Of a stretch of DNA of 64,000 nucleotides, positions 26,868 through 39,861 are shown piece by piece. The DNA comes from Naegleria gruberi. Its lineage: Eukaryota. The stretch lies in assembly GCA_000004985.1 (NCBI GenBank), contig GG738883.1; one strand, 5' to 3'. The notes beneath the pieces are model-generated. The model worked only from the letters and a program-made list of their open reading frames with translations, ran no database searches and had not been told where the DNA came from. Each line of letters begins with the position of its first letter. Position 1 is the first letter of the stretch. The position numbers were made by a program, and so were the translations under genes.

Positions 26868-27062
26868 TCTTGCTTCCATTTTCATTTTTGAATCGACCAG
26901 TGCAAATGGTCCTATCTATTGGATTGGAATTGGAAACGGGAATTGAGCGAAATTAACCTTAATCCCTTTTTTCACCTTGATGTTTTCACAATAAAACTGT
27001 TCCAAGTACACTTGATATTGAATTCAACACGCTTGAAGAAAACAAGTCAAAAGCTATCTGTA

Positions 27063-28367
27063 ATGCTAACCTCAAAGATGATCACTAATTACTCCCTCTT
27101 GATGGGTGCCTTATTATTCACAATAATACTAAGCGGTATTGCTTCACTGGTGCATGCACAACAAATGGTTTTATCCAAGTCAAGATGCCATGCTGGTCCA
27201 TTCACAATTACATTCTCTTCGACCATTCCAATTTCCTTTGGTACATCTGCTAAAATCAATGATGGATACAATACCTCTTCAACATTCAATTCAATTGTTG
27301 GCTATTCTAAAGATGAGACTAGCTTTTCTTTCAGAGTTGGAAAAACATCTGAAATGGGTGATTTCTTTATCTTCAATTCACCACATCCATTCGCTATTAG
27401 CTATACCATCTCGATGGATTTTGCCATGCTGAATTCAGAAACAACTACATTGAAAATACCTGCCTTTGGCCATGAAAGATTATTCACATCCAATCTCGTT
27501 CACACAACCACAAACAGTTTAACATTAACCAATTTGGATTCAACAAGGCACCATGTGAAAATTGCATATACATTCGCAAAGAGTGAAAAACCAAATTATC
27601 AATCGTTTGTTCTTTCCACTACTGAAACTATTCCACTCACCATTCCTTCTCAATACACTTCCTCCTCCAATATTCCGTTCTACCTCTATCTCCAATGTCA
27701 AAGCTCTTCAGAATGCAACATGGAATTGAAAATTACCCATGTGAGTTTCACAACTCAACAAAACCCTACTATTGACTCCAGTGCACCTCCAGAAGCAGCC
27801 TCAGGAACCGACATGCAAAGTATCTTTATGGATGAATTATTGGAGGCTGTTCCATCAGTGGCCTATCTCATTGGAAGTTTAATTGTTGGCTGTATTGCAT
27901 GTGCATGTTTAACATGTTGTGGTGTTTACTGCCTTGCTAAAAGACAAAAGAAGAAGGCAAGAGTCTCTTGTATTGATGCCTCTACAGAAACTTCATTCCG
28001 ATTCGTAACTGCCTTTGATAATAAGCAAGGAGAAGGAAATAATGATGCAACTAATTGTCCAACTCTTGCCTTTGTTCCTTGTCATAGTTTTAATAAGAGT
28101 AATGTGATGATGCCAAGTGCTGCTACTCAAGTGGAACTTCCAATGGCTGCTGATGTCATTATGGAGCAACAACATCCTCAATCCTATCCAACAAGTTTAC
28201 CTCCTCCTTATTCTTCTTCATCTAATCTGGAGACGCTACCAACAAATGAATTTAGTAAGGGTGAATTACCAGTAGAAGAACAACATCCAGTGGTCATGTA
28301 TCAAACTGTGAATATGTATCAGGATCCTAAAATGTCTTTCGATGTTGATCCTAATTTTAAAGTGTAA
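27063..28367 (+). CDS. novel type-I membrane protein, paralogue A (signal peptide, conserved ectodomain, one TM, cytoplasmic tail with a PPPY motif, C-terminus 'FDVDPNFKV')
   Basis: The track ORF starts at TTG 26919; the first ATG is 27063 (MLTSKMITNYSLLMGALLF...). The ectodomain blocks 'FRVG..S..G.FIFNS', 'IPAFGHERLF', 'VKIAYTF', 'PFYLYLQC' and the TM 'VAYLIGSLIVGCIACACLTCC' are shared with 34498 and 36609. Confidence 0.6.
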   Translation: MLTSKMITNYSLLMGALLFTIILSGIASLVHAQQMVLSKSRCHAGPFTITFSSTIPISFGTSAKINDGYNTSSTFNSIVGYSKDETSFSFRVGKTSEMGDFFIFNSPHPFAISYTISMDFAMLNSETTTLKIPAFGHERLFTSNLVHTTTNSLTLTNLDSTRHHVKIAYTFAKSEKPNYQSFVLSTTETIPLTIPSQYTSSSNIPFYLYLQCQSSSECNMELKITHVSFTTQQNPTIDSSAPPEAASGTDMQSIFMDELLEAVPSVAYLIGSLIVGCIACACLTCCGVYCLAKRQKKKARVSCIDASTETSFRFVTAFDNKQGEGNNDATNCPTLAFVPCHSFNKSNVMMPSAATQVELPMAADVIMEQQHPQSYPTSLPPPYSSSSNLETLPTNEFSKGELPVEEQHPVVMYQTVNMYQDPKMSFDVDPNFKV

Positions 28368-28442
28368 AATAAATTATATTGTTATTTAAAAATACAAATC
28401 TGAGAAGAACATGTTCAAATAGATTGATGGTTCATTAGATAC

Positions 28443-29109
28443 TTAATGTTTTTTAAGATTTCTTGGACTTTCCAAGTAGGCTTTAACTCTCTCACTCTTC
28501 AATACATTTGCCTTCAGAGTTTCAAGCTTGGAATCATCAACAACCACTTCAAATCGATACAAATCCAAGTATGATAATAAATCGTACAAGTATAAATCGG
28601 CCCAACTCAATCCTCCCGGAACTAGATTGCCATTATTCTTGATGAGGTGAGAATTTAATCCTTTCATGATGAGTTTCAACCAACCATTTTGGAATTTAAC
28701 TCGTTCCTCCTCCTTCTTATCTTCGGAAGTAAAATAGACAATTCTGATAACGTGATTGGTTAATTCATCAATAGCAGAGACGCATTCTTCGAGAATGGCT
28801 TGATTTCTTTCATCAGTTGGATGAAAATTTGCTTGCTTGGCTAAGAATCGAGCAATAGGAATGGTTTGATAGAGTGTGAAATCTTCATCAACTTTGAGAG
28901 AAGGCAATTGACCATATCTTGTGTTTGGTTGAGTAGATGTCCAGGATCCATCTTCAAATGAAATTGATTTAAATTCGTATGGAATTGCACAATGTTCTGC
29001 GATCAACTTGATAATGTCCTACAAAGAAGATTCAGTAATTTGAAAAGTTGTTTCAATGAAAACTTACTGCTCTGCCGGGTCCAGGAAAGTATACTAATTG
29101 GTAAGCCAT
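28443..29109 (-). CDS. sigma-class glutathione S-transferase (haematopoietic prostaglandin-D-synthase-like), two exons
   Basis: Exon 1 is 29109-29068 (MAYQLVYFPGPGRA). The intron is 29067-29019 (GTAAGT...TTGTAG). Exon 2 is 29018-28443. 'MAYQLVYFPGPGRADIIKLIAEHCAIPYEF...YGQLPSLKVD..LYQTIPIARFLAK' is the canonical GST N-terminal thioredoxin-like domain. Confidence 0.8.
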
Positions 29110-29354
29110 TTTTATTTGTGAATTTGTTGGATATTTGGTTAGTCAAATCTAGCTATTTATTTCGATGACCTGACTTCATGCAAATGCTAGAACATCCAAT
29201 TCGAGTGGAAATTCGAATCCTGAGCGTACGCATTAATCTCCAGCTCCTGATACTTTACAATTTCAGTTCATTAAAGTTGCTTGCAGCTGAATAAGTTTCT
29301 TTATGCTCAGTGGCAAATATTGATCTAATTGTTACAATTTCAAATAGTTTTGGA

Positions 29355-30371
29355 ATGGGTGAATTATTTAAAAAAATGAAATTGTTGGAACTGCCAGACG
29401 AAATTATTTTTCATATTTTGGGATATTGTTGTGTAGCAGCAGAAAATCATCATGAACCTCTACTCCGAAATCCATATGTTAGACAAATGGCCAAAATACA
29501 ATCTATCAACAAGGATTTTTCAAGAAGAATTAAAAGTTATTCTGATACGTTTTGGAAGAGTCTTTTAGTGGATGAATTTGGAGCGAATAAGCAATTTATT
29601 AAATTAATAGATGATCAAATAACAGGTACTTTGCAAAATAAGAAGATTTCACTGAAGAGAAGAGCACTCTTGTTGAGAAAATTATTTAGTAGGAATTTCA
29701 AAATTAATACCAATAAGCAACCTGGTTATTCCGAATGTAAATTTTGTGTTTCTGGACCTGCTAATACTGGTAAAACTTGTTTAACCACAAAATACATAAC
29801 AGGTGAATTTCCACAAGTTACAGATCCAACAATAGAAGACAGCTACAGAAAGATGATACGAGTAGATGAATATTCACACCTTTTGGATATTTTGGACACG
29901 GCTGGGCAAGAGGAATATAAAGCAATGAGAGATGGATATATTGCAACATCACAAGCTTTTGTAATTACTGCAAGTTTAGATCTTATTCCAACAGAATGTA
30001 CACAATATTACGAGGAATTATTGGCTCAAATTATAAGCATTAAGGATTGGAAAGGAGTTGGATGTTATCATCCAATGGTTTTTGTAGTGAACAAGTCTGA
30101 TTTAGAACAAGAGGAAAGAAAGTCAACATTTGAGGAATGGAAAACATTTTTGAATTCAGTTATAGAGAGATATGGAATAATGAATTCTGAGATTATTGAA
30201 ACCAGTGCCAAATCCAATATTAATGTTTCAAAAATATTTGAATTAGGTATTAGAATGTTTCTACATTTTCATTTTAGTCACGTTTTTTGGTTTCAACAAG
30301 TAATTGAATTGGATACAAAAGCTTTTAGTCACACAGAAAACAAATCCGAAAAGAAATGTTTACTACAATAA
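29355..30371 (+). CDS. F-box domain / Ras-family small GTPase fusion with a C-terminal CaaX box (CLLQ)
   Basis: The track ORF starts at GTG 29310; the first ATG is 29355 (MGELFKKMKLLELPDEIIFHILGYCC). Ras motifs are G1 'GPANTGKT', 'DTAGQEEYKAMRDGY', 'NKSD' and 'SAK'. The protein ends 'KKCLLQ*'. Confidence 0.8.
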   Translation: MGELFKKMKLLELPDEIIFHILGYCCVAAENHHEPLLRNPYVRQMAKIQSINKDFSRRIKSYSDTFWKSLLVDEFGANKQFIKLIDDQITGTLQNKKISLKRRALLLRKLFSRNFKINTNKQPGYSECKFCVSGPANTGKTCLTTKYITGEFPQVTDPTIEDSYRKMIRVDEYSHLLDILDTAGQEEYKAMRDGYIATSQAFVITASLDLIPTECTQYYEELLAQIISIKDWKGVGCYHPMVFVVNKSDLEQEERKSTFEEWKTFLNSVIERYGIMNSEIIETSAKSNINVSKIFELGIRMFLHFHFSHVFWFQQVIELDTKAFSHTENKSEKKCLLQ

Positions 30372-30430
30372 GTCTTTCTTTCAATGATTGTTAAGGGAAA
30401 ATATTAAGAGATTGATTGCTCATCATGTGA

Positions 30431-30503
30431 TCCCCCTTAGCTCAGTCGGTAGAGCGTCAGACTGTTAATCTGCAGGTCGGTGGTTCGAGCCCACCAGGGG
30501 GAG
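30431..30503 (+). tRNA. tRNA-Asn (anticodon GTT)
   Basis: The 73-nt cloverleaf has a 7-bp acceptor stem TCCCCCT/AGGGGGA and a D-arm GCTCAGTCGGTAGAGC. The anticodon loop is CTGTTAA with U33 and GUU. The T-arm is GGTTCGAGCCCACC, with discriminator G. Confidence 0.85.
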
Positions 30504-31036
30504 ATGCTTTTGCTCCCTACTTACTTTTTTCCCAAACTTGTCCTAAACCTGACTTGTGTATTTTATGCATTTCCTCAATTTATATCATGGAAGTGTTTAT
30601 TGGATATTCAAAGAATGGAATATTCCGGGAGTGTCACTACAAAACAACTAGATATCCAATATCAACTTTAAAATTGTTAGACAACCATTTACCCTTAATC
30701 CAGTCAGTTTGCTCCACATATTTTATAGTATCAACAAGTTTTTGCTGGGAAGTTTCAATGTCACTAAACAAAATCACCAATGCTTGCCCATGACTTTCCT
30801 GTTTGTTATTCACATCACTTCGTTCTTTTAAAATGCCGAGTATTGACCTGAAAACCCAAAAGCCCGATAACTTTGTAAACACAATTTCAGCAGTATAACA
30901 AATTGTCCATTTTAAGTAGTTTTGCACGCACCTTTTAATACCAATGCAATTTAAAAAAAACCTCCAAACAACTAAGCACCCACCTCTACCTCGAACAACT
31001 ATAACATACTTGGGTGCATTCAAATTTTGAATACAA

Positions 31037-32293
31037 ATGAACAATTTAATCCTCTCAACATTTGATGTTATTTCCAATTCAACCTCAACAACCAATACAT
31101 CTGCACTCTATATTGGTAATTGCTTACTGGTGGACCCTGATGGCTATCCATATGTCGAGTGGATGTACAATCTAATGGGTCAGTGTGTCCATTCACCATT
31201 GGAGCAGAGCTCTTTCTATGTTGGATTGGGAAGTCTGGCCTTGTACATTGTTTCTGGCATTCCACAAGTTATTGAGAATTTCATGAAGGGTAATGCTGAT
31301 GGTTTATCGCCCTACACTTTGGCCATGTTTATCATTGGTGATTCGAGTAACTTGTTGGGGGCCATTCTCACCCGTCAATTATTCACACAAATTCTATTGG
31401 CCATCTACTTTGTCACTATAGAGGTGATTTTAATTTCACAATTCCTATTCTACAAATTGAAAGCACTGTGGAAGAGGAGGAAACACAAAGGACAAGAACA
31501 ACTCCACGATGAAGAGGATGATAAAGCATCATCTGCCAACACTTCAGCAATAGTATCAGCAGCCGTAGATACTCACAGTTGTACCTCAATGACTTGTACT
31601 CCATTAGAGGAACACAATAATGAATTTCTTTCCGATAGTGAGCAGCAGCCTCATCACGAGAATGGACTGATGAGTTTGAAGGGCAATGTTAATTCCACAC
31701 GAACTGTTTCTCTACTTGTTTTGTTGATGGTCTTTTTCTATTTAATGTTCACAATGAATCATTCAAGTAACAACCTTAATATTCCACAACAACACAATGA
31801 ACAACAAACTGGAAGAAGATTATTATCGAACCATGAAGATGAAATCAGCACTACCAAGGATCACAACAGCGTTCAATTTCCACCTGTTGCAACTGAGGCC
31901 ATTATTGGCTATACTATTGGTTTCATATCCACGACATGTAGTATTGGTTCAAGAATTGCTCAAATTATTAAGAATTTCATGAAAGGAACCTATGGCATGA
32001 ATCCATTGCTGTTTGGATGTTCAGTTTTTGGTAATATTCTCTACTCGTCATCAATTTTCCTCTTTAGTGTGAATGGTTCCTTTCTGTTGTACAAAATTCC
32101 ATGGTTGACAAGTAGTTTGGTCAATATTTGTCTTGATTCTTTCATTATTGCACAATACATTTATTTCACATTCATTAAAAAGAAGCAACCACAACTAGAA
32201 AACCAAAAAACCTTAGAAAATAGTGAAAAATCTAAATTGGAAATTCAAAATGAAGAAAGAATTGAGAACAAGTTGAAAGATTTAGAAGTTTAA
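31037..32293 (+). CDS. PQ-loop repeat transporter (PQLC2/LAAT-1/Ypq-like lysosomal cationic amino-acid exporter family)
   Basis: Two PQ-loop motifs are present, 'SGIPQVIENFMKGNADGLSPYTLAMFIIGDSSN' and 'SRIAQIIKNFMKGTYGMNPLLFGCSVFGN', within seven predicted TM segments. The ATG is at 31037. Confidence 0.8.
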   Translation: MNNLILSTFDVISNSTSTTNTSALYIGNCLLVDPDGYPYVEWMYNLMGQCVHSPLEQSSFYVGLGSLALYIVSGIPQVIENFMKGNADGLSPYTLAMFIIGDSSNLLGAILTRQLFTQILLAIYFVTIEVILISQFLFYKLKALWKRRKHKGQEQLHDEEDDKASSANTSAIVSAAVDTHSCTSMTCTPLEEHNNEFLSDSEQQPHHENGLMSLKGNVNSTRTVSLLVLLMVFFYLMFTMNHSSNNLNIPQQHNEQQTGRRLLSNHEDEISTTKDHNSVQFPPVATEAIIGYTIGFISTTCSIGSRIAQIIKNFMKGTYGMNPLLFGCSVFGNILYSSSIFLFSVNGSFLLYKIPWLTSSLVNICLDSFIIAQYIYFTFIKKKQPQLENQKTLENSEKSKLEIQNEERIENKLKDLEV

Positions 32294-32599
32294 TGTTTCT
32301 TCCTTATACTGCTTTCAAGTTTTGCAATTCCACAATACATGAACAATTCGAAATTAACATAGCATCATACCAATCATATATGCTTTGTTATCCAAAAAAA
32401 CAATTCCCTCAATAAGATAATCTCTTTCAATAATAAATATGAGAAAGTGGGAAAGTTTAGTTTTTTCAAAATTCTAATTGTCTAAAGTTTTTAATGGGAG
32501 TGTCTACTGTTCCAAAACCGATTCTAATATCTTCAAGTTGAGTTCATCATTTTGTTCTTCATCTCTCTTTTCTGGTATCTATTTTGACAAGAACAAAAA

Positions 32600-34334
32600 A
32601 TGAAACAACAACGTTTATTCCTGTTTCTGATTGGTGCTATCGCTTTTATTTTACTTATTGTTTATCTACAATTTATCAACAACAAAACAACACCATCCAC
32701 TTCTCACATTTCTTCTAACTCTCCTCCGACAACAACACACGAGAGAAAGAAAGTAGACGAAACTAGAAATACACAACAGGTTGTTGCAGCAGAAGAGAAA
32801 GAAACTTCATCATTGCCAGGATCACACGTAAAGGAAATTAAAGTTCCAAAAATCAGAGACGATTCTTACTATGCAAGTGGTTTGAAATATTTCGATGCAT
32901 TCGAAAAAACACAAAATGTTGAAGCTAAATTAGCCGACATGGACACATCCAACATGAAAGATTTAATCTTTACTACCCAATTCAATCAAAGAATGAACAA
33001 GGGACAATTTATTGATAGAAGATTCGACAAGACACTTTATACATTTTCTAATGGAAAGGTCAAGGTAAATCATCCGAATCTGAAGGTGCATGTAAAATTC
33101 TCACCTGATGAATACAAAGATGATCATCTTCACTATCCAATCTCAACAGATGCCACCATTGATAGGTATTGTATCAGAGATAGTTTCTGTCAAGGTGTCG
33201 GTCAAACAATGTGTCAATTGTGTGATTCTAAAAAACCAAAACTTGAAAGCAAATACTTTTATACTTCATGGTGTTACAAACCAAATATTGATTTTACATT
33301 GGTTTCAGTGGATAATGGTATTTTAGATTATGGAGCTCATCATGAAATTGTGAGATTTAATGTTTTTGATGCAAATGCAAATGTGTTTTCAATGCCTGGT
33401 GGAAGTCCAATTGAAATTCATAGTGGAGGATGGAGTGTTGAATATCATGCTCAATTGGGAACAATTGGTAATGTGTGGTATCCTGATGGTATGTTCTTTT
33501 CATAATCATTCTTTTTTTTAATTCATGTTTTGCATTTTGTAATCTTAATTTTTGTAAAATGTGAAAATTCAAGCTCTTGGACATTTTCCAAATGAAATTC
33601 TTTTGAGAATTGTCTTTTTACACATTCATCTCCCTCTCGACATTCCAATCATTTATCATGATGGTCCATTTGCAAACTCAATTATGGATTCTCTAATTGA
33701 GAAGGGTTTCTTCCCAAAGGAGAGAAAATTCATCAAAGCAAAGGGTTCAGTTTTTCATGTGGCCAAACGTCTCTATTTCTTCCATTCTAAAGATTATCAA
33801 CACGTTCCAATTACTCCAGATGTTGTGGTGAGAAAGAGTACCGACTATCTGAAACAATTCTTCTATGCCAATGATAATTTGATTCAAAATAATGTCCGAT
33901 TCGACAGGGAATATATTCTAATTGTCGATAGATTGGACGCTAGCTCTAGAGGTATCCTAAATCATGATGAAGTAGTATCAAAAGTCAAAGAATCAGTCAA
34001 AGGAAAGAATATTGACGTTATTTCTGCAAGATTATCCAAACGTCAATTCTTGGAAATTGGTAAAATCTTTTTTGATGCCAAGGCAATCATTGCTCCACAT
34101 GGTGCTGGTCTAGCCAACTTGGTATTTGTGAAATCTGATATTAAATTCATGTTAGAGGTTGGTTGGGTTGGTTCAGATGCTGGAGGTTACTTTGCTCACT
34201 TTTTCTGTGTGGCTAGAGCTATGGGAATTAAGTATTATGCTGTGGCTGCAACTTCTGGAACTTATGGATCACATTTTAGAGTGGATGCTGACGAAATTGG
34301 TGGAATTGTAAGAAAGGAATTTGAAAATTATTAG
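32600..34334 (+). CDS. type-II membrane glycosyltransferase of the GT61/DUF563 family (EOGT / beta-1,2-xylosyltransferase-like), two exons
   Basis: Exon 1 is 32600-33488. The intron is 33489-33573 (GTATGT...TTCAAG). Exon 2 is 33574-34334. The N-terminus has a signal anchor. The C-terminal block 'IIAPHGAGLANLVFVKSDIKFMLEV' matches the GT61 'HGAGLTN' signature. Confidence 0.55.
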
Positions 34335-34497
34335 ATTCGAATAAGATTTTAATTTTGGGGTGTTGATTTTTCATTGGATTTCAAGGTATTGTAATCGACA
34401 GAGACTTTCTAATCTCATCAAATTAGAAACGCAGTAACGAAATCTGGGTAAAACCACACATTTGTTAACTCACTCGAGTTCACAACCATTAAAAAAA

Positions 34498-35604
34498 ATG
34501 TCACCACTCAACACATCACTTTTTATTTTTTGCATCTTGGCAGTATTGACACCCACCATTTACTCTCAATATCTTGTTGTCTCCCCTTCCACCTACTTAC
34601 CAGGTCAATACTATGTTACCTTGTCCATGAACAGTAGTTCTCCAGTCAACTTGGGTCACAGCTCCAATACCCAAGCAGCATACACAACTTCAACTGGTTT
34701 CACACTGCTGAGAAGCAACATTTTGAATGGAACCTACTACTTTAGAATAGGTTCAGTTTCGTCCTCTACAGGAAATTACGTAATTTTCAATTCTGCTTCA
34801 ACATTCCAAATTTCTTACAGAATTGGTGAAAGTTTTAATAACTTTTATCCATCTAGCTCAAGCAATTCCTATTCGATTCCTGCCTATGGAACTGAGAGAT
34901 TATATGCTAGCTCTTCCTACAGATCAGGAGAAAGTTATACATTACAATTCAAATCATCCAGAACAACTTCAGTCAAGATTGCATACACTTTCAATATTGA
35001 AACTGAACCATCCTATAGTTCTTATCAAATTACTTCATCCAGATCTGCATCCATTTCCTTTACTGTTCCAACTACTTCCTCTATTTATCCAACTTTTTAT
35101 TTATATATTCAGTGTAATAATGGAATTTCAGATTGTGGAACCATTACAGTTGAGACACCAAGATCTGATGATGCTGGAATGATTATTGGAATTGTGATTG
35201 GAGTTTTCATTTTGTTTATTATCATTTCAGTTGCCATTTCAATTCCATCAGTTATTGCTGCTAAAAAGAGAAGAATGATGGCACTTGCTGCAGTCACAGC
35301 TGCTAGCAAACATGGCGATTTTGCCACCACAAATAATGCAATTGTGCAGCCAACCATGCCACCTGGAGCCTACCAACCAATGGTTCAACAAATTCCAACA
35401 ATGCCACCTGGAGCTTATTACAATCAACAACAACCATCAACCATGCCACCTGGAGCTTATCAACCAATAATGGTTCAAAATCAAATGACAGTTCAAAATT
35501 ATCAGCCCTATGTTGTGGATCCACAAGTTCAACCATATAGTGGTCAACTACAATATGGAAATCAACCAATGCCTGCATTCAATCCTAATGTAGATCGTGT
35601 ATAA
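34498..35604 (+). CDS. novel type-I membrane protein, paralogue B (tail with three 'TMPPGAYQP' repeats, C-terminus 'PAFNPNVDRV')
   Basis: The first ATG is 34498 (MSPLNTSLFIFCILAVLTPTIYSQ, a signal peptide); the track used TTG at 34462. The ectodomain blocks are shared with 27063 and 36609, and a single TM 'IIGIVIGVFILFIIISVAI' is present. Confidence 0.6.
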   Translation: MSPLNTSLFIFCILAVLTPTIYSQYLVVSPSTYLPGQYYVTLSMNSSSPVNLGHSSNTQAAYTTSTGFTLLRSNILNGTYYFRIGSVSSSTGNYVIFNSASTFQISYRIGESFNNFYPSSSSNSYSIPAYGTERLYASSSYRSGESYTLQFKSSRTTSVKIAYTFNIETEPSYSSYQITSSRSASISFTVPTTSSIYPTFYLYIQCNNGISDCGTITVETPRSDDAGMIIGIVIGVFILFIIISVAISIPSVIAAKKRRMMALAAVTAASKHGDFATTNNAIVQPTMPPGAYQPMVQQIPTMPPGAYYNQQQPSTMPPGAYQPIMVQNQMTVQNYQPYVVDPQVQPYSGQLQYGNQPMPAFNPNVDRV

Positions 35605-35708
35605 TACGATATACTTGTTAAACTAGATTTATAATACTTTGAAAGTTTTTTTCATTCCACTTGATTTGAAACTTTTTCCCGCCTCATTAATAAATAAGGG
35701 ACAAAAAA

Positions 35709-36396
35709 AATGTCTCAAAATCCATCCGCCGAAACACTGCTATACATTAGACAGTGTGCTTCAGTGACATCCATGTTAAATCATTTTCCTTTCTTGAATT
35801 TTATGATTGAATTCTTTCACTCCTTGGGAGTTGAAGTTAAGGTAGACGACTATTTGAGATGAGAATGGACAAATTCTTGTTAATCAATTGCTGGCTATTA
35901 GTTTGGAAAATTTCAACATGTGTGGAATAGTTTCAAGTGACCTATCCAGAGAAAGTGAAGAGGAATGGAGAAGCTGTATTTTTATTTCGCAATTATGCAA
36001 CGAAGAAATAGGAGGCATAGAAAATTCTCACTTTGTTTTATCATACACGGCAGAAAAGTTACTTTCTGTTATTCTACCAAAAATTTGATTGTAGACCATT
36101 TCGTATTCAATAAGATTCAAACTTGGGACATTTGTAATGTGGATCATTTCATTGAAATAGTTGGATGTCTTTTTAAATTTACCAATTTTTCTTGGTGCCA
36201 TTTACCTAATCCATTTGGATACAAATCTAGTGCTATTCGTTGTTCTTCCCTAGCTGTTGGTTATTATGAAGAAGAGTTGAAAGAAAAGATAAGATCCAAA
36301 GAGAGAAGGGAGCTAATGAAAGAAACATTGCATAGAATTGAAAAGAAGTACAAACTAGGGCATACTCCAAAAACAAAGAAACAATTAGATTTGTGA
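35709..36396 (+). CDS. possible small multi-exon gene of unknown function; exon structure unresolved
   Basis: Short + strand ORFs with coding-like composition chain together: 35709 'MSQNPSAETLLYIRQC...', 35888-36088 and 35965-36396, the last ending in a basic tail 'KKYKLGHTPKTKKQLDL'. There are no competing minus-strand ORFs. I did not find a clean splice solution. Confidence 0.2.
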
Positions 36397-36608
36397 CTGA
36401 TAACGTAATTGAAAAATTGTTGAATTGTGCAATTAATAAATAACGTTTACAATGACTTCATCATGCAGAACCATTATTTGAATATCATCAAATTGTCAAA
36501 TGGAACCTTATAAAAGTTTACAAACAAGAAAACTCTAGAATGGTATTGGATTTTCAAAACAGCTCATTCAAATTCGAATCCTACTTTCCAATAACTTATT
36601 TTTAAAAA

Positions 36609-37874
36609 ATGTCCACTCGAGTCAACCAACACCACTCTCTAATTTTTTACTTCCTTGTTGCTGCTGGTGTTCTTACTCTCATCCACTCACAACTTGTTGC
36701 TGCAGTAAATGCAGCCTCTGGCTACGTCTATCCGAAAAATTATCTGACTCTCAATGTGAATAGTGGTGTTTATTCCGTTTCCTTCTCATCGAGTTGTTCA
36801 CTCGTGTTGGGTTATATTTCGTACAGTAATTATAACGATCTGGACAAATTGGCAACCTCTGTTCCTTCTACTTTCACTGTAATTTCAAAGGGTACAACCT
36901 ACTATTCAAACTCGTACAGTTATTATTCCTTAGATTCGAATTATTATTTTGTACTATTTAATAATGGATCATCCAACAGTTGTTATGCTAGCACATTTAG
37001 TGTGGCTTTGGAAATGAATACTTTATCATCCTCCACTCGTTCATTTACACTTCCCTATGGAATTACAAAAACCTTTTCCAATATTTATAGTTATAATAGA
37101 TTGGTTGTTACTTCCTCCAGTAGTTCTTCAATGAGTTTGTACTACAAGTCAGACTATTCATATTCTACACCAACAACAACACCAAATAGTTTGAGTCTTT
37201 ATAGTATTTCTAGATATGGAACTGCAAATATTCCATTGAGTACTTCTCGAAGTTCTTCGTATACCTCATATGTGTATCTTTCATGTGGTAATATTGGTGG
37301 TTGTCCTGTTACTTTATCTCTTGATTCAGATGGTAGTGATTCAGGTGCATCAACTATTATTGGAGCTATTGTTGGACCAATTGCATTTGTTGTAATTTTC
37401 ACATTCATTGTAATCATTTCAGTTGTTTCAACATGTGTGGCAAGAAGAAGAAGAATGCTGATGTTGGCAGCTGCCACTTCAGCTGTTGCAACTACAACCA
37501 CTTACTCAACTCAACCAACCTATGTTCCTGTCCCAACACCAGTTTCAACCACAACAACCACAACTGAAAACACAACTGTTTATGTTCCACCACCAGTTAC
37601 AACGACAGCTCAACAACCTTATAATCCAAATCAAGGTTACATTCCTCAACCTGGTGTTCCACAACCTTATAATCCAAATCAAGCTTACTACTCACAACCA
37701 CCAACTAGTCAACCGTATCAATCATATCAACCATATCAACAATATCAACAACAACAACCAAATACTCAACCTCCACCTTATTACAATCCTGGAGTTGGTG
37801 TCTACCCAACAAACAATGTTCCAGCACAACAAGAACCAAGGCCAGCTTTCAATCCAAATGTCGATAGTGTTTAA
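36609..37874 (+). CDS. novel type-I membrane protein, paralogue C (tail with 'QPYNPNQ(G/A)Y' repeats and a PPPYY motif, C-terminus 'PAFNPNVDSV')
   Basis: The ATG is at 36609. The protein has a signal peptide, a Ser/Tyr-rich ectodomain with the shared blocks, the TM 'IIGAIVGPIAFVVIFTFIVIISVV' and a Pro/Gln/Tyr-rich tail. Confidence 0.6.
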   Translation: MSTRVNQHHSLIFYFLVAAGVLTLIHSQLVAAVNAASGYVYPKNYLTLNVNSGVYSVSFSSSCSLVLGYISYSNYNDLDKLATSVPSTFTVISKGTTYYSNSYSYYSLDSNYYFVLFNNGSSNSCYASTFSVALEMNTLSSSTRSFTLPYGITKTFSNIYSYNRLVVTSSSSSSMSLYYKSDYSYSTPTTTPNSLSLYSISRYGTANIPLSTSRSSSYTSYVYLSCGNIGGCPVTLSLDSDGSDSGASTIIGAIVGPIAFVVIFTFIVIISVVSTCVARRRRMLMLAAATSAVATTTTYSTQPTYVPVPTPVSTTTTTTENTTVYVPPPVTTTAQQPYNPNQGYIPQPGVPQPYNPNQAYYSQPPTSQPYQSYQPYQQYQQQQPNTQPPPYYNPGVGVYPTNNVPAQQEPRPAFNPNVDSV

Positions 37875-38163: not shown

Positions 38164-39861
38164 ATGGCTTCCACTGCACTCCGTGTTGTTTATAACAATT
38201 TGATTGAACATGTCAGAAAGTACAAGATTCTCCAATCGGTGAATGCTCTTGCTGATTGGGATGAGTTAGTCATGATGCCTCCAAAGGGTGCTGAATCAAG
38301 AGGATTGCAAAAGACTGTCTTGGCTTCTTTGACTCACGATTTGCAAACTTCTCCACTCATTGAAAAGTATCTTTCGGAATTGGTAACTACTCAAGATGAT
38401 CAAAAGATTGTAGTGAAGAATGATTCCGAATTTGATGAATATGAAATTTCCAATATTATTCTCATCCATAAGGAATTTATAAGAAATACTAAAATTACAA
38501 AGGAATTGGTTGAGAGAGCTTCTGAATTATCTAGTCGTGGATATCATCAATGGGTTGAAGCTAGAAAGAAAAGTGATTGGACCTTGTTCCAAGACACTCT
38601 CCAAGAATGGGTTAACATTCGTAAGGAAATGAGTTTGTTGATTGAACCAAATCAAAATATTGCTGATACTTTGCTTGACGAATATGATCCTGGAATGACA
38701 TGTGAACAAGTTGCTCAAGTTTTTGAAGATGTCAAGAAGGAATTGATTCCACTCATTCAAGCCATTAGAAAGAAGGTTGAAGAAAATCCAGAAAAATACA
38801 GTGATGCTTCCTTGCTTGCCAAGATTCAAGCTGGTGCAGATGAATTGTTTGATCAAAAGGAACCGTTCCCAGTTGAAAAGCAAACTGAACTCTCCAAGCA
38901 AGTAGCTCAAGAATTAGGTTTCGATTTTGAAATGGGTAGATTGGATGTCAGTGTTCACCCATTCAGTACTTCATTCTCAACCAATGATGTCAGAATTACT
39001 ACCAGATATAATACTAAGGAATTCGTTAATGGTTTGGGTATGTTTTTTTGATGAATTATTGAAATTTATTTACCACATCATTTGGATAATTTGATTATCA
39101 TCATATAATTTACATTATCTTATTCTTGAATAATTACAGCTGGTACTGTACACGAAACAGGACACTCACTCTATGAAGCTGGTCTCAATCCACTCTATGC
39201 CTATCAACCAGTTCAATCTGCTCTTGGTACTACCATCCACGAAAGTCAATCCTTGTTCTGGGAAAGACATGTTGGTTTGAGTAAGGGATTCTGGAGAAAG
39301 TGGTTGCCAGTTGCTGAAGAATTGTTCCCATACTTGAAGCAAAAGAAATTGAGCGTTGATGACATTTACAGATCTGCCAATACTGTCACCCTCAATAACT
39401 TTATCAGAATTGAAGCTGATGAATTGACCTATCCAATGCACGTAATTCTTAGATTTGAAATAGAAAAGGGATTATTGGATGGATCAATCAGTGTTGCTGA
39501 TGTTCCAAAAGTTTGGAATGCCAAAGTTAAGGAATATTTGGGACTTGATGTTCCAAATGATGCTAAGGGTGCTCTCCAAGATGTCCACTGGAGTTCAGGC
39601 GCTTTTGCCTATTTCCCAACATATCTTCTTGGTGCTATGGCCTCTGCTCAAATCTCTGCATCCATTCCAGATTTTGAAAAACACATTGAAGAAAATAACT
39701 ATGCCTTCTTGAAGAATTGGTTGAATGAAAACATCCACAAGAGAGGTACTGTTACATTGACCTCTAACAAGTTGCTTAAGGAAGCTACTGGTTCTGAATT
39801 GAATCCAAAGATCTTTGTTAACTATCTCAAGACTAAATACAGTGCTCTCTATGATCTTTAA
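38164..39861 (+). CDS. M32-family metallocarboxypeptidase (carboxypeptidase Taq-like), two exons
   Basis: Exon 1 is 38164-39037. The intron is 39038-39139 (GTATGT...TTACAG). Exon 2 is 39140-39861. The spliced product contains 'GTVHETGHSLYEAG' (HExxH zinc site), 'TIHESQSLFWERHVG' (the HES motif) and a C-terminal 'DVHWSSGAFAYFPTY', all M32 hallmarks. Confidence 0.85.

What the first reader, a model, noticed from the sequence alone, without database searches (positions are those of the whole stretch)
26919..37874. Cluster of three paralogous novel type-I membrane proteins with PPxY / Pro-Gln-Tyr-rich cytoplasmic tails and a conserved C-terminal peptide
The genes at 27063-28367, 34498-35604 and 36609-37874 all lie on the + strand within 11 kb. 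Each encodes a signal peptide, a Ser/Thr/Tyr-rich ectodomain, one TM helix and a cytoplasmic tail. The ectodomains share collinear blocks (FR(V/I)G..S..G.(F/Y)(I/V)IFNS, IPA(F/Y)G.ERL(F/Y), VKIAYTF, P(F/T)FYLY(L/I)QC). The tails differ in repeat content. Tail A has a PPPY motif. Tail B has three TMPPGAYQP repeats. Tail C has QPYNPNQ(G/A)Y repeats plus PPPYY. Two proteins end with the near-identical peptide PAFNPNVD(R/S)V, and the third ends FDVDPNFKV. PPxY motifs are classic ligands for WW domains of Nedd4-family E3 ligases and a C-terminal ...D.V ending resembles a PDZ-binding tail; both readings are inference. I know of no described family matching this ectodomain. It could be a lineage-specific receptor or adhesion family whose surface levels are controlled by ubiquitin ligases.
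Basis: seen in the sequence. Interest (0 to 1): 0.7.

Follow-up and report, generated by a model that had tools for sequence, protein, structure and literature searches.

The report
Naegleria-only family of single-pass membrane proteins
Three neighbouring genes of the amoeba Naegleria gruberi belong to a small uncharacterised family, so far seen only in this species, of membrane proteins with a folded beta-sheet outer part and a fast-changing disordered inner tail; the proposed link to Nedd4-type ubiquitin ligases is not supported.

Summary
The window is Naegleria gruberi. The three genes are real, intron-less and annotated only as "predicted protein" (NAEGRDRAFT_70246, 70251 and 58704). Each has a signal peptide, an ectodomain of about 200 aa, one TM helix, a polybasic stop-transfer and a P/Q/Y-rich tail of 118-145 aa.

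A and B are clear paralogues (33% identity over 218 aa, E 8e-23). C is only a remote relative (profile-profile E 1.3e-7), and the quoted sequence blocks exist in A and B only.

An exhaustive HMM search of 1.84 billion proteins found only N. gruberi or N. gruberi-like sequences. The family has at least 8 members and no Pfam or PDB sequence match.

AlphaFold2 on the 8-member alignment gives an all-beta ectodomain (pLDDT 83). It most resembles tandem jelly-roll or beta-sandwich binding modules, at generic similarity only. Two Cys next to the membrane are invariant. The ectodomain is not a mucin.

PPxY occurs in 2 of 8 tails, about as often as chance predicts. Tail C has no lysine. A published survey finds C2-WW-HECT (Nedd4-like) ligases only in opisthokonts and apusozoans.

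The one constrained tail element is the C-terminal PAFNPNVDxV shared by B and C, where 5 of 9 conserved codons differ synonymously. Four of 8 members end in Val. I read this as a trafficking signal.

This is an orphan family of receptor-like proteins of ordinary architecture. Interest is low to moderate.

The parts
27063..28367 (+). Gene A (NAEGRDRAFT_70246, D2VMS8), 434 aa. Signal peptide aa 1-33, ectodomain about aa 34-261, TM about aa 266-291 (Cys-rich: CIACACLTCCGVYC), tail aa 292-434.
27696..27719 (+). A: the family-invariant membrane-proximal Cys pair (CQSSSEC), probably a disulphide.
28200..28211 (+). A: PPPY (within LPPPY), the only PY motif whose occurrence is somewhat unexpected from composition (p 0.034).
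28338..28364 (+). A: C-terminal FDVDPNFKV, a degenerate counterpart of the B/C terminal peptide that also ends in Val.
34498..35604 (+). Gene B (NAEGRDRAFT_70251, D2VMT3), 368 aa. Signal peptide aa 1-23, ectodomain aa 24-223, TM about aa 226-252, KKRR aa 256-259, tail to aa 368.
35113..35139 (+). B: invariant Cys pair (CNNGISDC).
35353..35460 (+). B: three TMPPGAY(QP/YN) tail repeats. They are PPxxY, not PPxY, and two of them form YQP(M/I), i.e. YxxPhi.
35572..35601 (+). B: C-terminal PAFNPNVDRV, conserved with C at the protein level despite synonymous divergence.
36609..37874 (+). Gene C (NAEGRDRAFT_58704, D2VMT4), 421 aa, of the divergent C-type subfamily (with NAEGRDRAFT_71330). Signal peptide aa 1-27, ectodomain aa 28-245, TM about aa 249-277, RRRR aa 279-282, lysine-free tail.
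37284..37307 (+). C: invariant Cys pair (CGNIGGC).
37614..37688 (+). C: two QPYNPNQ(G/A)Y repeats.
37770..37781 (+). C: PPPY, expected by chance in 43% of shuffles of this tail.
37842..37871 (+). C: C-terminal PAFNPNVDSV.

Best explanation
A, B and C are three members of a family of type I membrane proteins with at least 8 members, detected so far only in Naegleria gruberi and one N. gruberi-like metagenome strain.

Shown or predicted from sequence:
- A cleavable signal peptide, probably leaving an N-terminal Gln.
- An ectodomain of about 200 aa, rich in Ser, Thr and Tyr, predicted to be all-beta with 15 strands. It most likely forms two jelly-roll or beta-sandwich modules of about 100 aa each. 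The last hairpin is probably pinned by an invariant Cys-x6-7-Cys pair next to the membrane.
- One TM helix followed by a polybasic stop-transfer.
- A rapidly diverging, compositionally biased (P/Q/Y/T) tail that is presumably disordered.

Inferred function:
- The ectodomain is a binding module for an extracellular ligand, by analogy with carbohydrate-, collagen- and ephrin-binding beta-sandwiches. The proteins would then act as surface (or endolysosomal) receptors or adhesins. This fits an amoeba that crawls on surfaces and eats bacteria.
- The tail carries short linear sorting motifs. The only one under demonstrable constraint is the extreme C-terminus (PAFNPNVDxV in B and C; x-[KRS]-V in 4 of 8 members).
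- I read that C-terminus as a C-terminal-valine trafficking signal, recognised by COPII/Sec24 for ER export or by a GRASP-type PDZ domain. I do not read it as a scaffold PDZ ligand.
- The PY and YxxPhi matches may be functional but cannot be told apart from composition-driven chance.
For: Organism and gene identity:
- B is 100% identical to an N. gruberi protein on a 371 kb scaffold. C and A are likewise identified.

Family membership:
- The exhaustive HMM search of 1.84e9 representative proteins gave 10 hits at E<=1e-3. Eight of them are A, B, an allelic fragment of C (P0003) and five further paralogues (P0004-P0007, P0010). Every one that carries a name is N. gruberi, and the rest come from one ENA metagenome. 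The other two hits (P0008, P0009) matched in several short stretches; P0009 reads as an unrelated repeat protein and P0008 was not inspected.
- The 8-member alignment shows conserved motifs (IFNS, IPxYGxxRLF, AFTF, PFYLYxQC) and two invariant Cys.
- The C-type and A-type subfamilies are linked by hhalign at E 1.3e-7.

Fold:
- AF2 on the 8-sequence alignment gives pLDDT 83.1 and pTM 0.71, with 15 beta strands plus a TM helix.
- Foldseek top hits are tandem-sandwich proteins such as the SIDT1/2 ectodomain, ColG s3a-s3b, HA70 and CUB pairs.

Topology:
- Hydropathy and the positive-inside rule.

These are real genes under constraint:
- An allele of B in a second strain has dS 0.024 and dN 0.007, and the ectodomain shows 4 synonymous against 1 non-synonymous change.

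C-terminal motif:
- B and C share 9 of 10 residues, and the best match in 300 shuffles was 7 of 10. Five of the 9 conserved codons differ synonymously, which argues against recent gene conversion.
- Four of 8 members end in Val although Val makes up 9% of tail residues (binomial p 0.0035).
- C-terminal Val is an established ER-export and GRASP signal of type I proteins (PMC11470877). COPII is present in N. gruberi (PMC5963838). GRASP is inferred for the last eukaryotic common ancestor (PMC5840792).
Against: - There is no experimental or expression evidence, and no paper mentions these loci.
- I could not inspect model coordinates, so the two-domain split rests on strand count and on what kinds of proteins were hit. 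The two halves show no sequence similarity to each other.
- The C-terminal peptide is shared strictly by B and C only. Four of 8 paralogues do not end in Val, although two of those gene models may be truncated.
- The paralogues are not independent samples, so the p-values for tail motifs are post hoc and optimistic.
- Surface versus internal-membrane location is not determined.
- Absence from other Naegleria species rests on a 3-sequence profile. The better 8-sequence profile could only be run through the word-filtered search, which scored just 8000 candidates.
Confidence: 0.55

Rival explanations
1. These are surface receptors whose PPxY motifs recruit WW domains of a Nedd4-type HECT ligase, so that their abundance is controlled by ubiquitin. 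The D-x-V C-terminus docks on PDZ scaffolds.
For: - LPPPY in A is a textbook PY motif and is somewhat unexpected from composition (p 0.034).
- PPPY is present in C.
- The pooled PPxY count is 3 against 0.8 expected (p about 0.05).
- D-R-V and D-S-V fit a class III PDZ ligand (general knowledge).
Against: - PPxY is absent from B and from the five other paralogues.
- In C it is expected by chance in 43% of shuffles.
- Tail C has no Lys acceptor.
- Nedd4-like C2-WW-HECT ligases are reported only from Opisthokonta and Apusozoa in a survey that included N. gruberi (PMC3673628).
- The four Val endings fall into three different PDZ classes.
Confidence: 0.08
2. These are residents or cargo receptors of internal membranes (ER-Golgi or endolysosomal), working like p24/GOLD-type or lysosomal type I proteins, and are not plasma-membrane receptors.
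For: - C-terminal Val is an early-secretory signal.
- YQP(M/I) and YQTV match YxxPhi lysosomal or endocytic signals.
Against: - p24 proteins have one GOLD domain, a coiled coil and a tail of 10-15 aa. Here there are about 200 aa of beta structure, no coiled coil, and tails of 84-145 aa in most members.
- YxxPhi is not enriched: 6 observed against 8.7 expected.
- The GOLD similarity is no better than that to dozens of other sandwiches.
Confidence: 0.2
3. These are structural or matrix proteins, for example Ser/Tyr-rich components of the cyst wall or surface coat, and the membrane anchor serves only for delivery.
For: - Ectodomain composition is extreme: Ser 15-25%, Tyr up to 12%.
- The family is lineage-restricted and fast-evolving, as is typical of coat proteins.
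Against: - The fold is conserved and confidently predicted, without tandem repeats in the ectodomain.
- The long cytoplasmic tails with a constrained C-terminus are unnecessary for a wall protein.
Confidence: 0.08
4. These are spurious or decaying ORFs produced by low-complexity sequence.
For: - Biased composition creates long antisense and off-frame ORFs over the same DNA.
- No expression data were found.
Against: - There are eight paralogues with collinear motifs and invariant Cys.
- The fold prediction is confident.
- The ORF is intact in a second strain, with dN/dS 0.3 overall and about 0.08 in the ectodomain.
- The C-terminal peptide is under purifying selection.
Confidence: 0.03

Closest known systems
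Tandem beta-sandwich or jelly-roll binding modules: SID1/SIDT ectodomain, clostridial collagenase collagen-binding/PPC domains (ColG s3a-s3b), CBM6/29/35, ephrin-receptor ligand-binding domain
   Different: - There is no sequence similarity (5-14% identity), and TM-scores are only about 0.3.
- It has no multi-pass SID1 channel domain, no kinase and no enzyme attached.
- Ca- or sugar-binding residues could not be assessed.
- This is a resemblance of fold class, not membership.
PY-motif membrane adaptors and substrates of Nedd4/Rsp5 (Ndfip1/2, Bsd2, Ear1/Ssh4, Shisa-like STMC6 proteins)
   Same: Membrane proteins with a proline-rich cytoplasmic region. A and C each carry one PPPY.
   Different: - The PY motif is not conserved in the family and is near chance expectation.
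- The cognate ligase family is not reported from Excavata.
- Ndfip and Bsd2 are multi-pass proteins. Shisa-like proteins have a Cys-rich ectodomain with 6-8 Cys (from my own knowledge), whereas only two Cys are invariant here.
Type I membrane cargo bearing a C-terminal valine (CD8alpha, proTGF-alpha, Kit ligand, HLA-F)
   Same: Type I topology with Val as the last residue in 4 of 8 members, inside the only constrained part of the tail. The machinery involved (COPII, and GRASP more widely) is ancient.
   Different: These proteins are unrelated in sequence and the dependence on Val is untested. Half of the family lacks the terminal Val.
p24/TMED GOLD-domain cargo receptors
   Different: - The beta region is twice the size.
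- There is no coiled coil.
- Tails are about 10 times longer and compositionally biased.
- There is no sequence match.

Membership tests
Nedd4/Rsp5 PY-motif clients or adaptors | A [LP]PxY motif in the cytosolic region, conserved among homologues | tested here: not met
   Present in A and C only (2 of 8 tails) and not positionally conserved. The chance of at least one match in shuffles is 0.43 for C and 0.034 for A.
Nedd4/Rsp5 PY-motif clients or adaptors | A C2-WW-HECT ligase encoded by the same organism | not testable with these tools
   The proteome could not be scanned here. A published survey that included N. gruberi finds this architecture only in Opisthokonta and Apusozoa (PMC3673628).
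Nedd4/Rsp5 PY-motif clients or adaptors | Cytosolic lysines available as ubiquitin acceptors (needed for substrates) | tested here: inconclusive
   Tail C has 0 Lys, tail B has 3 and tail A has 9.
PDZ-ligand C-termini | A C-terminal [ST]-x-Phi, Phi-x-Phi or [DE]-x-Phi consensus that is consistent within the family | tested here: inconclusive
   Four of 8 members end in x-V, but as F-K-V, D-R-V, D-S-V and S-K-V, which are three different classes. The other four end in N, K, N and I.
PDZ-ligand C-termini | A cognate PDZ protein in the organism that binds the peptide | not testable with these tools
   This needs a proteome scan and a binding assay.
C-terminal-valine ER-export cargo | Type I topology with Val at the extreme cytosolic C-terminus | tested here: met
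   Met for A, B, C and NAEGRDRAFT_66544. Four of 8 against a 9% background gives p 0.0035. The peptide is under purifying selection between B and C.
C-terminal-valine ER-export cargo | ER exit depends on the terminal Val, via Sec24 or GRASP | not testable with these tools
   This is an experimental question.
SID1/SIDT family | A multi-pass (about 11 TM) membrane domain following the ectodomain | tested here: not met
   Only one TM segment is present.
p24/TMED | A single GOLD domain, a coiled coil and a short tail of 10-15 aa with COPI/COPII motifs | tested here: not met
   The model has 15 strands over about 200 aa and no helix before the TM. Tails are 84-145 aa in six of the eight members (65 aa in NAEGRDRAFT_73576 and 14 aa in the possibly truncated 71330 model). 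There is no Pfam EMP24_GP25L hit.
   - No tandem or direct repeats in the ectodomain coding DNA.
- Collinear conserved motifs across 8 paralogues.
- AF2 pLDDT 83.
Any Pfam-A family or solved structure, by sequence | A significant profile match | tested here: not met
   No Pfam hit reaches its threshold and none is shared by two or more members. The best PDB profile search gives E 1.1.

The most novel reading that the evidence does not exclude
The constrained C-terminal FNPNVDxV peptide, together with the PY-like and YQP motifs, would be the ligand set of a peptide-recognition sorting system in a discoban. That system would be independent of Nedd4: a non-canonical WW- or PDZ-like reader coupled to a different E3 or coat. 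The family would then be a handle on how PY- and PDZ-type sorting of surface receptors existed, or arose convergently, outside Amorphea. The ectodomain would be a new family of prey- or substrate-binding receptors.
Probability: 0.07. Interest if true: 0.6.

Novelty: new variant of a known kind. Interest (0 to 1): 0.3.

Why it matters
If the reading is right, this is an uncharacterised receptor-like gene family so far seen only in Naegleria gruberi. It could contribute to how this free-living amoeba recognises surfaces or prey. It also offers a compact case of a folded ectodomain evolving slowly while the disordered tail is reshuffled around one conserved terminal sorting peptide. No such family is described in Pfam, so it could be deposited as a new domain.

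The wider impact is limited. Orphan single-pass membrane families are common in protists. No orthologue was detected in the pathogen N. fowleri, and the attractive Nedd4/PPxY story does not hold up.

Tried and rejected
- Word-indexed protein searches with B, with the full-length A/B/C alignment and with the 8-member ectodomain alignment returned only sequences already in the query. Low-complexity and TM words saturated the 8000-candidate limit, so these searches say little about distant relatives.
- A JGI metagenome scan with the peptide patterns [SH]VKIAYTF and [TP]FYLY[IL]QC found 181 pattern matches but no relative.
- A metagenome scan for the back-translated PAFNPNVDxV-stop pattern found nothing.
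- The 8-member alignment was too divergent for pattern derivation.
- The afdb50 library was unavailable, so AlphaFold-database paralogues and neighbours could not be retrieved.
- The internal-duplication test of the two ectodomain halves was negative (hhalign E 0.13).
- A synteny test compared the neighbour of the metagenomic paralogue P0005 with the window ORF at 32600-33505. The two are unrelated.
- A phage-database search with L001 was irrelevant and empty.
- Literature searches for the locus tags and UniProt ids found no paper. Searches for Naegleria with PPxY, WW or PDZ gave nothing specific.
- YxxPhi as an enriched endocytic signal was rejected: 6 observed against 8.7 expected.
- Recent gene conversion as the cause of the shared B/C terminus was rejected, because 5 synonymous differences occur in 10 codons.

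Full report
**Source and gene models.** Protein B (window 34498-35604) is 100% identical to a "predicted protein" of Naegleria gruberi carried on a 371,401-bp scaffold. A, B and C correspond to NAEGRDRAFT_70246 (D2VMS8), 70251 (D2VMT3) and 58704 (D2VMT4). The window has about 35% G+C and short GTATGT...AG introns in neighbouring genes, which fits this organism. All three genes are uninterrupted ORFs on the + strand. The many overlapping off-frame and antisense ORFs are by-products of biased composition.

**Checking the observation.**
- Hydropathy gives each protein an N-terminal signal-like segment ending (H/Y)(A/S)-Q. Each also has one strong internal hydrophobic segment (mean Kyte-Doolittle 2.4-3.3) followed at once by KR-rich residues, so a type I topology with a cytosolic tail of 118-145 aa is the straightforward reading.
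- The ectodomain blocks are real for A and B: BLASTP E 8e-23, 33% identity over 218 aa, Smith-Waterman score 22 SD above shuffles.
- C is different. A-C is not significant pairwise. B-C matches only from the Cys pair through the TM helix to the juxtamembrane stretch (E 2e-6).
- C's ectodomain is nevertheless a remote homologue. Shuffle z-scores are 4.5 (B-C) and 6.0 (A-C). A profile of six A-type members aligns with a profile of the two C-type members over 171 collinear columns at probability 94%, E 1.3e-7.
- The window holds no fourth copy.
- The cluster is loose. A is separated from B by about 6 kb carrying a GST, an F-box-Ras fusion, a tRNA-Asn, a PQ-loop protein and a GT61 glycosyltransferase. 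B and C are adjacent.

**The family.**
- An exhaustive HMMER search of 1.84 billion representative proteins, using the A/B/C ectodomain profile, gave ten hits at E<=1e-3.
- Eight of these are A, B, an allelic fragment of C (P0003) and five further paralogues (P0004-P0007, P0010). Every sequence that carries a name is N. gruberi: NAEGRDRAFT_66544, 71414, 71330 and 73576. The unnamed ones come from one ENA metagenome (ERZ929261) that evidently contains a second N. gruberi-like strain.
- The other two hits (P0008, P0009) matched in several short stretches. P0009 reads as an unrelated repeat protein, and P0008 was not inspected.
- The family therefore has at least eight members. No member of N. 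fowleri, N. lovaniensis or any other organism was detected. That search used only a three-sequence profile, and the better profile could be run only through a saturated word filter.
- No Pfam family reaches its threshold or recurs among members. No PDB sequence matches.
- The alignment shows conserved motifs: G.Y.ISF, (I/L)F(N/T)S, IP.YG..R(L/F)F, (A/G)F(T/A)F and PFYL(Y/H)(I/L)QC. Exactly two Cys are invariant, 6-7 residues apart, just before the TM helix. The C-type pair (C and 71330) shares two extra Cys.

**Fold.**
- With three sequences AF2 gave a poor model (pLDDT 62).
- With the eight-member alignment it gave pLDDT 83.1 and pTM 0.71: 15 beta strands over about 200 residues, then a continuous TM helix.
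- Foldseek's best hits (E about 2e-4, TM about 0.3) are proteins with two sandwiches in tandem: the SIDT1/2 ectodomain, ColG s3a-s3b, botulinum HA70 and CUB pairs.
- I conclude that the ectodomain is a conserved, folded all-beta module, probably two sandwich domains. The halves are not detectably duplicated.
There are also no repeats in the ectodomain DNA.

**Are the genes under selection?** The B allele from the second strain (L002) differs by 6 synonymous and 6 non-synonymous changes (dS 0.024, dN 0.007). Within the ectodomain the split is 4 to 1. Flanking DNA is 95-98% identical. The numbers are small, but they fit purifying selection on a real gene.

**The tails.**
- Tails are unalignable across most paralogues and compositionally biased: P 10-19%, Q up to 14%, Y up to 10%.
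- PPxY occurs in A and C only. Shuffling each tail gives at least one PPxY in 3.4% (A), 14.7% (B, which has none) and 43% (C) of trials. Pooled over the family, 3 matches compare with 0.8 expected, p about 0.05.
- Tail C has no lysine at all.
- The Nedd4 mechanism is therefore unsupported, though not strictly excluded, because I could not scan the proteome for other WW proteins.
- YxxPhi motifs are not enriched: 6 against 8.7 expected.
- YQ[PT] and NPN are enriched, but mostly through internal tandem repeats.

**The C-terminus.**
- B and C share PAFNPNVD(R/S)V, 9 of 10 residues. The best 10-mer match in 300 shuffles was 7.
- Five of the nine conserved codons differ at synonymous positions. The identity therefore reflects purifying selection on the peptide, not recent gene conversion.
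- B and C also share the juxtamembrane stretch (K/R)4M(M/L).LAA and a loosely collinear repeat region, although B's ectodomain is closer to A. This means either mosaic evolution or unequal rates.
- Four of eight members end in Val (FKV, DRV, DSV, SKV) against a 9% Val background (p 0.0035, post hoc, and the members are not independent). These endings belong to three different PDZ-ligand classes.
- A C-terminal Val on type I membrane proteins is a documented ER-export signal (CD8, Kit ligand, HLA-F). It is also a ligand of the PDZ domains of GRASP55/65 (PMC11470877).
- COPII is present in N. gruberi (PMC5963838). GRASP is inferred for the last eukaryotic common ancestor and is not listed as lost in Discoba (PMC5840792).
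- I therefore prefer a trafficking-signal reading. This is an inference.

**Verdict.**
- The architecture and the "no known family" statement hold. The PPxY/Nedd4/PDZ mechanism does not.
- What is present is a lineage-restricted orphan family of receptor-like type I membrane proteins. Each has a tandem beta-sandwich ectodomain and a fast-evolving disordered tail that ends, in half the members, in a constrained Val-terminal peptide.
- This is a new protein family of a familiar architectural kind, already in databases as "predicted protein". Interest is low to moderate.

Noticed in passing
window 32600-34334 (+): The ORFs at 32600-33505 and 33561-34334 look like one GT61-family glycosyltransferase gene. 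It has an N-terminal type II signal anchor, and Pfam PF04577 matches the second ORF at E 7e-16. A short intron beginning GTATGT at about 33490 splits the two ORFs. The gene lies directly upstream of the Ser/Thr-rich gene B, and any functional link is speculative.
   Followed up: partly
window 38164-39861 (+): An M32 (Taq-type) carboxypeptidase is split into two ORFs by an intron of about 100 nt, from GTATGT at about 39040 to TTACAG at 39139. Pfam PF02074 positions 2-254 and 294-489 fall on the two halves.
   Followed up: partly
window 29310-30371 (+): A protein that combines an F-box-like domain (PF13013) with a Ras-family GTPase domain (PF00071), which is an unusual fusion.
   Followed up: no
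window 30431-30503 (+): A tRNA-Asn(GTT) gene lies between the F-box-Ras gene and the PQ-loop gene.
   Followed up: no
L002 (ENA ERZ929261) versus window 35605-36320: A second N. gruberi-like strain in a metagenome carries a B allele that is 98-99% identical. In the region aligned by blastn, its B-C intergenic DNA is about 430 bp longer than the window's. A 175-aa gene is called at L002 1426-1953, within that intergenic region, and I did not check whether it has a counterpart in the window.
   Followed up: partly
L001 1060-2259 (ENA ERZ929261): P0005 is an eighth family member. Like A it has a Cys-cluster TM helix (CLCCACCGIGCCC, a possible palmitoylation site). It is found only in the metagenome and not in the NCBI N. 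gruberi protein set, so it is either unannotated there or strain-specific. Its neighbour gives a faint MACPF hit.
   Followed up: no
window 35173-35280 versus 37353-37460: B and C share the TM and juxtamembrane segment and the C-terminal peptide, although B's ectodomain groups with A. This suggests a domain-level mosaic, from past recombination between the adjacent genes or from very unequal evolutionary rates.
   Followed up: partly
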